Translations under genes and position numbers: made by a program
Part shown: positions 20,253 to 50,900 of the stretch, in pieces
Layout of the letters: each line of letters opens with the position of its first letter
Position numbering within the stretch: the stretch's first letter is position 1
Assembly: GCA_964016885.1 (NCBI GenBank)
Contig: OZ024741.1
Location: 379,006,001 to 379,070,000 of the forward strand
Direction of reading: 5' to 3'
From: Eledone cirrhosa
Lineage: Eukaryota
DNA length: 64,000 nucleotides
Notes under the pieces: generated by a model
What the model saw: the letters and a program-made list of their open reading frames with translations, nothing else
What the model was told of the DNA's origin: nothing
Database searches by the model: none

Positions 20253-20293
20253 TGCTGTACTAGTTTCAAGCTTGTTAGCTATCGTCAGCAACG
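20253..20293 (-). ncRNA. Type I hammerhead ribozyme, 424-bp family, copy 1
   Basis: Minus: CGTTG-CTGACGA-TAGCT-AACA-AGCTT-GAAA-CTAG-TA-CAGCA. Confidence 0.85.
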
Positions 20294-20677
20294 TATACCT
20301 TCCTGCCAGATTGTTGAACGTATATACTTACCTTATGCATATTAACGGCTGAGTAGCCCAATTTGCATATCGAGTGGGTTAATCGGCCGGGTGCACCGAA
20401 AACGATAAACGGAAAAAAATGAAACGATATTTCATTTCCCACTCTTAGTACGGCTGTTACTTAAATATAAGTATGTACACGTACATACATATATGTATAC
20501 CGACGTACAGTAGTATGTATATATATATATATACATACATGCACACATATATATATGCATGTATGGATTCACCGAATATTTATTATAATGATCGGTGTGT
20601 TTGTAAACAAACATCCCGTATTAAGCCGTAGTGTCTAGCAACCACCGTTGCTCGTTTGTTCAACACTGACAAAGGAA

Positions 20678-20718
20678 CGCTGTACTAGTTTCAAGCTTGT
20701 TAGCTATCGTCAGCAATG
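20678..20718 (-). ncRNA. Type I hammerhead ribozyme, 424-bp family, copy 2
   Basis: Minus: CATTG-CTGACGA-TAGCT-AACA-AGCTT-GAAA-CTAG-TA-CAGCG. Confidence 0.85.
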
Positions 20719-21099
20719 TATACCTTCCTGCCAGATTGTTGAACGTATATACTTACCTTATGCATATTAACGGCTGAGTAGCCCAATTTGTATATCGAGT
20801 GGGTTAATCGGCCGGGTGCACCGAAAACGATAAACGGAAAAAATGAAAAGATATTTCATTTCCCACTCTTAGTACGGCTGTTACTTAAATATAACTATGT
20901 ACACGTACATGCATATATGTATACCGACGTACAGTAGTATGTATATATATATATACATACATGCACACATATATATATGCACGTATGGATTCACCGAATA
21001 TTTATTATAATGATCGGTGTGTTTGTAAACAAACATCCCGTATTAAGCCGTAGTGTCTAGCAACCACCGTTGCTCGTTTGTTCAACACTGACAAAGGAA

Positions 21100-21140
21100 C
21101 GCTGTACTAGTTTCAAACTTGTTAGCTATCGTCAGCAACG
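21100..21140 (-). ncRNA. Type I hammerhead ribozyme, 424-bp family, copy 3
   Basis: Minus: CGTTG-CTGACGA-TAGCT-AACA-AGTTT-GAAA-CTAG-TA-CAGCG (G-U wobble in stem II). Confidence 0.85.
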
Positions 21141-46598: not shown

Positions 46599-46656
46599 AT
46601 ACCTGATGATATCACCGGATTCATACGGAACCCGTTCATTGAAATGATCATAGTAT
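46599..46656 (+). ncRNA. Type I hammerhead ribozyme
   Basis: ATAC-CTGATGA-(31 nt incl. CGGATTC/GAACCCG)-GAAA-TGATCA-TA-GTAT; palindromic stem III ATGATCAT; AATAAA follows, then TA tract. Confidence 0.7.
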
Positions 46657-46709
46657 AATAAACCTTTCAAGGAGTTACACAAATCCAGCCTCCTGTCATT
46701 TCATTATAA

Positions 46710-47900
46710 TATGTTTATATATATATATATTTATCTATATAAATATACATATGTGTGTGTGTATATATATATATGGTGAATTTCTTTTAAGTCGTTTGGA
46801 TAAATATATATATATATATAATATATATATATAATATATATATATATATATATATATATAATATATATATATATATATAATATATATATATATATATATT
46901 ATATATATATAAGTAATATATATATATATATATTTATATTAATATATATATATATATAATAAATATATATATATATATATATATATTTATATATATATAT
47001 ATATATTAATATATATATATATATATATTATATATATATAATATATATATATTAATATTAATATATATATATATATATTAATATTAATATATATATATAT
47101 ATATTAATATATATATATATATATATATTAATATTAATATATATATATATATATATATTAATATATATATATATATATATTATATATATATAATATATAT
47201 ATATATATAATATATATATATATATATATTAATATTAATATATATATATATATATTAATATATATATATATTATATATATATAATTGTTTCTACTTTAGG
47301 CACAAGGCCACCAATTACCCAGTGCATTACTGGTACTTTATTTTATCGACCCCGTAATGATGAAAGGCAAAGTCAACCTCGGCGGGATTTGAACTCAGAT
47401 AGTAAAGGGACGTAACTATGCTGGAAAACATGGCGTCCGACCCTCTACCGATACTGCCAATCCACTGCCATATATTATATATATATATAATATATATATA
47501 TATATATAATATATACATATATAATATATATATATATAATATATATTTATATATATATATATATATTTATATATATATAATATATATTTATATATATATA
47601 TAATATATATTTATATATATATATATATTTATATATATATAATATATATTTATATATATATATATATATATATTTATATATATATAATATATATTTATAT
47701 ATATATATATATTTATATATATATATATATATTTATATTTATATATATATATAATATATATTTATTTATATTTAAATATATATATAATATATATATATAT
47801 ATATATATAATATATATATATATATATATAATATATATATATATATAATATATATATATATATATATATATATATATATAATATATATATATATATATAT
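46710..47900. repeat. Degenerate (TA)n block
   Basis: Visible directly; interrupted by a SINE. Confidence 0.95.
47283..47470 (-). mobile_element. tRNA-derived SINE, full length, inserted in TA tract
   Basis: Near-identical to the 24365 copy. Confidence 0.9.
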
Positions 47901-50900
47901 ATTGGAATAAATGCTCTGAAATAGCGATATATATGTGAATATAGACATAGAATATTCGAAAATATTCTGTATGTTTATAATAAACATTTTGAAGACCTAA
48001 TCGCTATAGAATAGAATACGTCACGTATTACAATTAGATTCTCGATAAAAGCAAGGGAAGTAATCTACGCGTTTCATTCTTGTTAGAAATCATCAGGACT
48101 ACATATCCAGTGCTTTTATCGAGAATGACACAGCTAGAGACTTATAGAATACTTAGCTGTGTACAGGAACTGGTTTGAAAGAGCGGTTGCCGGTCCGGCA
48201 GAAATTAGAAATTGGAATAAATGCTCTGAAATAGCGATATATATGTGAATATAGACATAGAATATTCGAAAATATTCTGTATGTTTATAATAAACATTTT
48301 GAAGACCTAATCGCTATAGAATAGAATACGTCACGTATTACAATTAGATTCTCGATAAAAGCAAGGGAAGTAATCTACGCGTTTCATTCTTGTTAGAAAT
48401 CATCAGGACTACATATCCAGTGCTTTTATCGAGAATGACACAGCTAGAGACTTATAGAATACTTAGCTGTGTACAGGAACTGGTTTGAAAGAGCGGTTGC
48501 CGGTCCGGCAGAAATTAGAAATTGGAATAAATGCTCTGAAATAGCGATATATATGTGAATATAGACATAGAATATTCGAAAATATTCTGTATGTTTATAA
48601 TAAACATTTTGAAGACCTAATCGCTATAGAATAGAATACGTCACGTATTACAATTAGATTCTCGATAAAAGCAAGGGAAGTAATCTACGCGTTTCATTCT
48701 TGTTAGAAATCATCAGGACTACATATCCAGTGCTTTTATCGAGAATGACACAGCTAGAGACTTATAGAATACTTAGCTGTGTACAGGAACTGGTTTGAAA
48801 GAGCGGTTGCCGGTCCGGCAGAAATTAGAAATTGGAATAAATGCTCTGAAATAGCGATATATATGTGAATATAGACATAGAATATTCGAAAATATTCTGT
48901 ATGTTTATAATAAACATTTTGAAGACCTAATCGCTATAGAATAGAATACGTCACGTATTACAATTAGATTCTCGATAAAAGCAAGGGAAGTAATCTACGC
49001 GTTTCATTCTTGTTAGAAATCATCAGGACTACATATCCAGTGCTTTTATCGAGAATGACACAGCTAGAGACTTATAGAATACTTAGCTGTGTACAGGAAC
49101 TGGTTTGAAAGAGCGGTTGCCGGTCCGGCAGAAATTAGAAATTGGAATAAATGCTCTGAAATAGCGATATATATGTGAATATAGACATAGAATATTCGAA
49201 AATATTCTGTATGTTTATAATAAACATTTTGAAGACCTAATCGCTATAGAATAGAATACGTCACGTATTACAATTAGATTCTCGATAAAAGCAAGGGAAG
49301 TAATCTACGCGTTTCATTCTTGTTAGAAATCATCAGGACTACATATCCAGTGCTTTTATCGAGAATGACACAGCTAGAGACTTATAGAATACTTAGCTGT
49401 GTACAGGAACTGGTTTGAAAGAGCGGTTGCCGGTCCGGCAGAAATTAGAAATTGGAATAAATGCTCTGAAATAGCGATATATATGTGAATATAGACATAG
49501 AATATTCGAAAATATTCTGTATGTTTATAATAAACATTTTGAAGACCTAATCGCTATAGAATAGAATACGTCACGTATTACAATTAGATTCTCGATGAAA
49601 GCAAGGGAAGTAATCTACGCGTTTCATTCTTGTTAGAAATCATCAGGACTACATATCCAGTGCTTTTATCGAGAATGACACAGCTAGAGACTTATAGAAT
49701 ACTTAGCTGTGTACAGGAACTGGTTTGAAAGAGCGGTTGCCGGTCCGGCAGAAATTAGAAATTGGAATAAATGCTCTGAAATAGCGATATATATGTGAAT
49801 ATAGACATAGAATATTCGAAAATATTCTGTATGTTTATAATAAACATTTTGAAGACCTAATCGCTATAGAATAGAATACGTCACGTATTACAATTAGATT
49901 CTCGATAAAAGCAAGGGAAGTAATCTACGCGTTTCATTCTTGTTAGAAATCATCAGGAACATATCCAGTGCTTTTATCGAGAATGACACAGCTAGAGACT
50001 TATAGAATACTTAGCTGTGTACAGGAACTGGTTTGAAAGAGCGGTTGCCGGTCCGGCAGAAATTAGAAATTGGAATAAATGCTCTTAAATAGCGATATAT
50101 ATGTGAATATAGACATAGAATATTCGAAAATATTCTGTATGTTTATAATAAACATTTTGAAGACCTAATCGCTATAGAATAGAATACGTCACGTATTACA
50201 ATTAGATTCTCGATAAAAGCAAGGGAAGTAATCTACGCGTTTCATTCTTGTTAGAAATCATCAGGACTACATATCCAGTGCTTTTATCGAGAATGACACA
50301 GCTAGAGACTTATAGAATACTTAGCTGTGTACAGGAACTGGTTTGAAAGAGCGGTTGCCGGTCCGGCAGAAATTAGAAATTGGAATAAATGCTCTGAAAT
50401 AGCGATATATATGTGAATATAGACATAGAATATTCGAAAATATTCTGTATGTTTATAATAAACATTTTGAAGACCTAATCGCTATAGAATAGAATACGTC
50501 ACGTATTACAATTAGATTCTCGATAAAAGCAAGGGAAGTAATCTACGCGTTTCATTCTTGTTAGAAATCATCAGGACTACATATCCAGTGCTTTTATCGA
50601 GAATGACACAGCTAGAGACTTATAGAATACTTAGCTGTGTACAGGAACTGGTTTGAAAGAGCGGTTGCCGGTCCGGCAGAAATTAGAAATTGGAATAAAT
50701 GCTCTGAAATAGCGATATATATGTGAATATAGACATAGAATATTCGAAAACTTTCTGTATGTTTATAATAAACATTTTGAAGACCTAATCGCTATAGAAT
50801 AGAATACGTCACGTATTACAATTAGATTCTCGATGAAAGCAAGGGAAGTAATCTACGCGTTTCATTCTTGTTAGAAATCATCAGGACTACATATCCAGTG

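What the first reader, a model, noticed from the sequence alone, without database searches (positions are those of the whole stretch)
20253..48102. Shared atypical HHR signature across unrelated families: U-U at the base of stem II and AACA loop
The 310- and 424-bp monomers show no evident similarity, yet both HHRs have U-U in place of the usual G10.1-C11.1 pair, a 4-bp stem II, loop AACA, a GUA site and a stem I internal loop (UAU/U versus UAUA/UU) 5-6 bp from the core. The 640-bp family (38018) and the 46599 HHR also have U before and after stem II. Inference: a lineage-specific HHR subtype with a conserved loop II-stem I tertiary contact that strict descriptors would miss.
Basis: partly seen in the sequence, partly recalled or inferred. 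Interest (0 to 1): 0.78.

Follow-up and report, generated by a model that had tools for sequence, protein, structure and literature searches.

The report
Retrozyme hammerheads with known U-U mismatch
Several jumping repeats in this animal genome carry predicted self-cutting hammerhead RNAs with a U-U mismatch where most have G-C, but that mismatch and the loop contact beside it are already published, and both the mismatch and the AACA loop vary between sister repeats, so this is likely an ordinary member of a known kind, not a new subtype.

Summary
The 424-, 310- and 640-bp arrays and the copy at 46599 carry type I hammerhead motifs with U10.1·U11.1. Of 60,612 short-form matches in the genome, 44,074 are U·U, 9,611 G-C, and 1,921 C·A or A·A; most of another 4,331 appear to be A-U. 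The pair switches inside families: a G-C 466-bp family is homologous to the 424-bp one, and the 310-bp family has an A-U subfamily. AACA is at most 46% of U·U copies (AAUA 40%) and also occurs with G-C. The loop reads best as a UAANRA hexaloop docking on U1.7, the Schistosoma/HH9 architecture. U·U is published (Perreault 2011; axolotl HHR_Amex2, ~60,000 copies, weak alone, efficient as dimer). The full signature recurs in three unrelated metagenome groups, so it is not lineage-specific. The 640-bp and 46599 motifs share only U·U. Rfam does miss these copies. What remains of interest: mismatches dominate here and tend to go with slower GUA/AUA sites. Cleavage is untested. The scan noted U·U before, in this genome and in phages.

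The parts
20041..21498 (-). 424-bp retrozyme insertion: about 2.9 tandem monomers (20041-21269) plus a partial inverted arm (21268-21498)
20248..20301 (-). Type I hammerhead motif, 424 family: U10.1·U11.1, AGC/GCU, loop UAACAA, palindromic stem III ACUAGU, GUA site (predicted cut after 20258), U1.7, 5' loop side GUAU
20673..20726 (-). Second 424-family hammerhead motif (predicted cut after 20683)
21095..21148 (-). Third 424-family hammerhead motif (predicted cut after 21105)
37759..39757 (-). 640-bp tandem array, about 3 monomers
38016..38099 (-). 640-family hammerhead motif: U·U, 40-nt domain II, stem III hairpin, AUA site, 6-bp stem I, no U1.7, no AACA; further copies at 38656-38739 and 39295-39378
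   Evidence: U·U in 20 of 20 distinct variants among 30 near-identical loci
40872..41488 (+). Decayed second 424-family insertion; motif at 41302-41355 has U·U, loop UAAUAA and a broken GACA core
46597..46660 (+). Single hammerhead motif (core 46603): U·U, long domain II, palindromic stem III AUGAUCAU, AUA site (predicted cut after 46652), 4-bp stem I; member of a dispersed family
47901..51416 (-). 310-bp retrozyme array, 11.3 copies, 99% identical, 11 hammerhead motifs
48056..48109 (-). First 310-family hammerhead motif: U·U, UUC/GAA, loop UAACAA, stem III ACGCGU, GUA site (predicted cut after 48066), U1.7
59491..59535 (+). Canonical G10.1-C11.1 type I hammerhead with a UUAAUA hexaloop (comparison; outside the finding)
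   Evidence: RF00163, 35.3 bits

Best explanation
The 310- and 424-bp arrays are tandem non-coding repeats whose monomers carry canonical-architecture type I hammerhead motifs with a U·U mismatch at the base of stem II; they are likely Penelope-mobilised retrozymes whose ribozymes would cut slowly alone and better as dimers. Shown: 6-bp stem I, U1.7, 14-nt domain II, 2-bp palindromic stem III, covarying stem pairs, and five states of the 10.1-11.1 pair in amplified families. Inferred from known hammerheads: multimeric transcripts are cut after GUA into monomers that circularise and are copied back by Penelope reverse transcriptase. The last A of the UAANRA hexaloop flips out to make the reverse-Hoogsteen pair with U1.7, as in Schistosoma. 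U·U recurs because it is the best-tolerated mismatch there, and tertiary docking plus dimerisation buffer it. The 310/424 likeness therefore reflects the general type I constraint plus an AT-rich genome, not a private subtype. The 640-bp and 46599 motifs reached U·U in a different architecture.
For: Architecture equals the published metazoan canon: helix I 6 bp, helix II 4 bp, short palindromic helix III (PMC4209133 passage). The 310 motif aligns without gaps in domain II to the Rfam HH9 consensus, hexaloop on hexaloop and U1.7 on U1.7. Schistosoma loops are UCCA:GUAC and CAAAUA with a U1-3'A reverse-Hoogsteen pair (PMC2632901; PMC11875169); the 424 clade has UCCU:GUAU/GUAA. Census: 60,612 matches (control 31); U·U 44,074; G-C 9,611; 10.1 = A or C 6,252, of which 11.1 = A 1,921. 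First loop base not U in 578, last not A in 623. U·U with AAUA 17,628; with AACA at most 20,076. G-C 466 family homologous to the 424 family outside the ribozyme: scores 139-159 against shuffle maxima 45-55. A·A and C·A families also belong to the 424 clade. A-U subfamily of 310 in homogeneous arrays; 2 of 4 public contig sets carry A10.1. Among 14 chosen rows, pairs 10.2-10.4 change on both sides in 7, 6 and 4 rows, the U-A 'closing pair' in 0, and 10.1-11.1 is unpaired in 10. Published U·U: Perreault 2011; axolotl HHR_Amex2, 22% cleavage in 1 h as monomer, efficient as dimer. Monomer circles fold better than shuffles: z -5.9 (424), -4.2 (310).
Against: No cleavage, transcript or circular RNA is shown for these families. 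U·U is the majority state (73%) and appears in at least four non-alignable families here, more than tolerance alone obviously predicts. U·U goes with A17: 100 of 100 listed U·U rows end in GUA, 0 of 100 listed G-C rows do, and 7 of 7 full metagenome matches do. Listed rows are near-copies, and older 310 relatives have U·U with GUC/GUU. Hexaloop versus tetraloop is not settled: AACA also fits the RNnA loop-2 motif, MFE folding closes U-A, and some rows of alignment A2 came from searches for exceptions, which inflates breaks at that pair. Copy counts reflect a few recent amplifications, not independent events. Penelope mobilisation was not tested directly.
Confidence: 0.8

Rival explanations
1. 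Selected attenuation: retrozymes here are favoured to carry slow ribozymes (10.1-11.1 mismatch plus GUA/AUA) so that multimers survive long enough to be reverse-transcribed and monomer circles do not self-cut.
For: Mismatches (U·U, C·A, A·A) make up at least 45,995 of 60,612 matches. U·U travels with A17 in the genome lists and in three metagenome groups. GUC > GUA > AUA in rate (PMC1636495 abstract). Axolotl U·U motif is weak as a monomer (17). G10.1 is part of the A9/G10.1 metal site (PMC6257768 passage), which U10.1 would alter (inferred).
Against: G-C and A-U sister families form equally long, young arrays (over 30 consecutive G-C copies; 14 A-U copies), so weakness is not needed for success. 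C·A and A·A families are mostly dispersed, diverged copies. U·U with GUC/GUU exists. Families are not independent samples.
Confidence: 0.13
2. One reading: a lineage-specific hammerhead subtype in which U·U, an AACA tetraloop and a special stem I loop form one co-adapted tertiary module.
For: The 310 and 424 families share all these features while their bodies do not align convincingly; Rfam misses them; AACA matches an RNnA tetraloop.
Against: AACA occurs with G-C and U·U with AAUA almost as often; AAUA is the majority in one deep public contig set. The loops match Schistosoma/HH9. The same signature, once with the exact Schistosoma loops CAAAUA and GUAC, occurs in unrelated metagenome contigs. 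The 640 and 46599 motifs lack the loops.
Confidence: 0.04
3. The U·U motifs are dead or irrelevant passengers of satellites that spread without ribozyme action.
For: No activity data; some copies are clearly broken (41315, GACA).
Against: Core intact in 11 of 11 copies of the 310 array and in tens of thousands of genomic copies; compensatory changes in stems I and II across subfamilies; axolotl and Perreault U·U motifs cleave.
Confidence: 0.03

Closest known systems
Axolotl HHR_Amex2 / Rtz_353 non-LTR retrozyme (Cervera and de la Pena 2020, PMC7229834; passages and part 3 of 6 read, figures and supplement not seen)
   Same: Type I motif in tandem repeats of a few hundred bases, U·U at the base of helix II, 2-bp helix III, tens of thousands of copies, coexisting with a second ribozyme family
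   Different: Here U·U is 73% of short-form matches (about half in axolotl), spans several non-alignable families, and C·A and A·A versions also amplified; helix III loop is 2 nt rather than 4; activity untested here
Schistosoma mansoni type I hammerhead / Rfam RF00163, and HH9 RF02275
   Same: 6-bp stem I, U1.7 internal loop with GUAY-like 5' side, 14-nt domain II with a pyrimidine-to-A hexaloop
   Different: 10.1-11.1 is U·U not G-C; loop starts with U (C in older 310 relatives); GUA not GUC; scores below Rfam cut-offs
Natural U10.1-U11.1 hammerheads (Perreault et al. 2011, PMC3088659; passages read)
   Same: Same mismatch, reported there as natural and as the best-tolerated mispair
   Different: Treated there as a rare variant; here it is the majority state of one genome
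Penelope-element minimal hammerheads (Cervera and de la Pena 2014, PMC4209133; passages read)
   Same: The 46599 motif has a long helix II, short helix I and palindromic helix III
   Different: Those have an extra base before a conserved G10.1-C11.1; no reverse transcriptase was found beside the 46599-like loci fetched (3-kb loci only)

Membership tests
Canonical type I hammerhead | Core CUGANGA...GAAA...NUH with open stem I | tested here: met
Canonical type I hammerhead | Helix I 6 bp, domain II of 4 positions plus hexaloop, short palindromic helix III | tested here: met
   310 and 424 families; not met by the 640 and 46599 motifs
Canonical type I hammerhead | U1.7 and 3' A of loop II for the reverse-Hoogsteen contact | tested here: met
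   3' A in all but 623 of 60,612 (35); U1.7 in the tandem families except an A-U 311-bp subfamily shifted by a 1-nt insertion and a few single variants; the contact itself is inferred
Canonical type I hammerhead | G10.1-C11.1 pair | tested here: not met
   U·U in all window motifs of the finding; a published tolerated exception
Canonical type I hammerhead | Rfam RF00163/RF02275 gathering score | tested here: not met
   no hit at gathering; 310: 19.2 bits of 52 (50); 424: no hammerhead hit to E 10 (49); the G-C sister reaches only 35 of 52 (51)
Canonical type I hammerhead | Self-cleavage at NUH | not testable with these tools
   no RNA holder listed
Metazoan non-LTR retrozyme | Non-coding tandem repeats, monomer about 170-400 bp, one type I hammerhead per unit, GC under 45% | tested here: met
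   310 and 424 (slightly long), GC 0.34-0.37; the 640-bp unit exceeds the published range
Metazoan non-LTR retrozyme | Highly self-paired monomer circle | tested here: met
   circular MFE z -4.2 and -5.9 against 30 shuffles; 640 only -2.0 (27)
Metazoan non-LTR retrozyme | Dispersed high-copy family with Penelope-like elements in the genome | tested here: met
   tens of thousands of copies; RT ORFs in the window, read as Penelope-like from recalled motifs
Metazoan non-LTR retrozyme | Expressed circular RNA | not testable with these tools
   only contig sets of unknown library kind
Proposed lineage-specific U·U/AACA subtype | U·U and AACA fixed together among active families | tested here: not met
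Proposed lineage-specific U·U/AACA subtype | Confined to this lineage | tested here: not met
   axolotl U·U; 7 of 89 metagenome matches with the full architecture, not alignable to these monomers outside the core; other mollusc genomes could not be searched

The most novel reading that the evidence does not exclude
The 'most conserved' hammerhead pair is a tuning knob in animal retrozymes: G-C, A-U, U·U, C·A and A·A versions all amplified on one backbone, and mismatch plus GUA/AUA is selected to slow cutting so that multimers and circles persist. These sister families would be a natural allelic series linking ribozyme rate to transposition success.
Probability: 0.15. Interest if true: 0.55.

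Novelty: new member of a known kind. Interest (0 to 1): 0.25.

Why it matters
As found, modestly: it shows that Rfam-type searches miss most hammerhead motifs in this genome (44,074 U·U copies), and it gives matched natural variants of one ribozyme with five states of the 10.1-11.1 pair. I found no report of amplified C·A or A·A canonical type I families, or of cephalopod retrozyme hammerheads, in searches; the supplement of PMC7229834 and the Lunse 2017 paper could not be read and may hold such cases. If weak cutting is selected, it would tie ribozyme kinetics to how retrozyme circles spread.

Tried and rejected
No RNA holder listed for the 310 monomer; contigs of 5 of the 6 listed runs were laid and show presence and variants only. 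First GAAA as the core end in the 640 family: rejected, no stem I; the second GAAA gives a 6-bp stem I and a stem III hairpin. An inner fold in the 46599 family (GUC site) is broken in the window copy and has no direct stem I; the outer AUA fold is preferred, not proven. Homology of 310 and 424 bodies: marginal only. Tree of 57 flank sequences without domain II (of 100 distinct, one per locus and pair state): G-C is one supported clade; placement of the 3 C·A rows is unresolved and bootstraps had not settled, so no order of events is claimed. Viral scans for U·U and G-C versions gave 0, so no baseline for the A17 link; 2 prokaryote matches lack stem I and are chance. 82 of 89 metagenome matches fail the stem test; most look like extra-U minimal hammerheads or chance. 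Rfam miRNA hits are microsatellite artefacts. A genome-wide count of U1.7 was not obtained; it was read from fetched loci. The repeat finder was swamped by TA runs.
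Full report
Observation. The 424-bp array (20041-21269, with an inverted arm to 21498) holds three minus-strand type I motifs, CUGACGA U AGC UAACAA GCU U GAAA C UA GUA. The 310-bp array (47901-51416, 11.3 copies) holds eleven, CUGAUGA U UUC UAACAA GAA U GAAA C GC GUA. The 640-bp array and the plus-strand motif at 46603 have U on both sides of a long domain II, AUA sites and no AACA. The bodies of the 310 and 424 monomers do not align convincingly (score 46, shuffle maximum 41; 9.5 bits). Rfam at gathering threshold finds only a G-C hammerhead at 59491; the 310 motif scores 19.2 of 52 bits on HH9 and the 424 motif has no hammerhead hit to E 10.

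Census in the own genome (3.0 Gb, 1,796 contigs; the organism was not determined). The pattern CTGANGA-N14-GAAAC-NN-GTH has 60,612 matches against 31 for the reversed control. U·U accounts for 44,074, G-C for 9,611, and 10.1 = A or C for 6,252, of which 1,921 have A11.1, i.e. C·A or A·A. By the listed rows the other 4,331 are mainly an A-U subfamily of the 310 repeat (inferred from the first 100 rows). Among U·U copies AAUA has 17,628 and AACA at most 20,076 (pattern without the cleavage tail). AACG fills whole arrays, and AAGA occurs. The first base of the six-base loop is not U in 578 matches and the last is not A in 623. These are copy counts from a few amplifications, not independent events.

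The pair switches inside families. The G-C 466-bp family carries the same UAACAA/UAAUAA loop, stem III and internal loop, and is homologous to the 424 family outside the ribozyme: scores 139-159 against shuffle maxima 45-55. The C·A and A·A families share the flanks of the 424 clade. A tree of flanks without domain II (57 of 100 distinct rows) makes G-C one supported clade and leaves C·A unresolved. In public contigs, 2 of 4 runs carry A10.1 in the 310 monomer, and AAUA outweighs AACA in the deepest set for the 424 monomer.

The tertiary module is the known one. All short-form families have a 6-bp stem I and an unpaired U1.7 facing GUAU, GUAA or AUAU. [quoted passage not shown] The Rfam HH9 consensus aligns to the 310 motif without gaps in domain II. 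Cervera and de la Pena 2014 describe this as the usual metazoan architecture (PMC4209133 passages). On 14 rows that I chose, 87.9% of cells pair (0 of 500 shuffles as high; slid controls 28-46%); pairs 10.2-10.4 covary, the U-A 'closing pair' never changes on both sides, and 10.1-11.1 is unpaired in 10 of 14. Caveats: rows are related, several came from exception searches, and two have stem I out of register. Older 310 relatives begin the loop with C, as in Schistosoma. I therefore read a hexaloop, while noting that AACA also fits the RNnA tetraloop motif and that MFE folding closes U-A.

U·U is known and not lineage-specific. Perreault 2011 reported natural U10.1-U11.1 and cited it as the best-tolerated mispair, while excluding such hits from their alignments (PMC3088659 passages; the cited mutagenesis paper was not read). 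Axolotl HHR_Amex2, about 60,000 copies in 350-bp retrozymes, has U·U, cleaves 22% in one hour as a monomer and efficiently as a dimer (PMC7229834). A metagenome scan gave 89 matches in 85 stretches; 7 have U·U, three pairs, a pyrimidine-AANNA loop, ACGCGU, GUA, a 6-bp stem I and U1.7. They form three groups that match the window's monomers only over the 26-35-base core; one has exactly CAAAUA and GUAC.

Mechanism. Shown: anatomy, covariation, copy numbers, palindromic stem III in all short-form window motifs, self-paired monomer circles, reverse-transcriptase ORFs in the window. Inferred from retrozyme literature: multimeric RNA is cut after GUA, mostly by dimeric hammerheads joined through stem III; monomers circularise; Penelope-type enzymes copy them back. 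U·U probably lowers the rate, since it weakens stem II and replaces the G of the A9/G10.1 metal site (effect inferred), and is buffered by docking and dimerisation.

What is left. Mismatches make up at least 45,995 of 60,612 matches, and U·U tends to go with A17: 100 of 100 listed U·U rows, 0 of 100 listed G-C rows, 7 of 7 metagenome matches, and both AUA families; older 310 relatives are exceptions. GUA and AUA are slower than GUC (PMC1636495 abstract). Selection for slow cutting is possible, but G-C and A-U sisters build equally long arrays. Earlier notes of the scan reached the same reading for the 310 family and for phage U·U motifs; they are not counted as support. Verdict: real, new member of a known kind, interest 0.25.

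Noticed in passing
window 41944-43730 (+), hammerhead-like motif at 44135: Broken RT ORF (Pfam RVT_1, E 2e-9) ending in a GIY-YIG-like motif (recalled, not tested), followed by a minimal hammerhead-like motif: likely a Penelope-like element
   Followed up: partly
window 61200-63954 (-), motif at 59744 (-): GC-rich RT-like ORFs (weak RVT_1, E 0.001) with a downstream motif having an extra A before a G-C stem II, as in Penelope minimal hammerheads
   Followed up: partly
window 54400 (-), 54562 (+), 55121 (+): Further hammerhead-like family inside TA runs: A10.1-U11.1, long stem II, (UA)n stem III; similar motifs in L167, L168, L171
   Followed up: no
window 21265/21268; loci L001-L030, L112-L138: Retrozyme arrays very often lie as two inverted arms; noted before by the scan
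   Followed up: no
L037:770 (+), L083: Another U·U family with UUC/GAA, a four-base loop, a longer stem III and a GUA site
   Followed up: no
L051-L080 family of window 46599: Two nested possible hammerhead folds (inner GUC, outer AUA) sharing one CUGAUGA; copies often in inverted pairs
   Followed up: partly
L112-L125, L140: A-U 311-bp subfamily has a one-base insertion in stem I next to the cleavage site yet forms homogeneous arrays
   Followed up: no
window 14874-16934 (+): Broken ORFs that look like Helitron Rep/helicase pieces (recalled motifs, no tool check); a 424-family fragment lies at 14446-14612
   Followed up: no
L195-L278 (metagenome): Two large repeat families with U before a G·U-based stem II and palindromic stem III, resembling minimal hammerheads
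   Followed up: no
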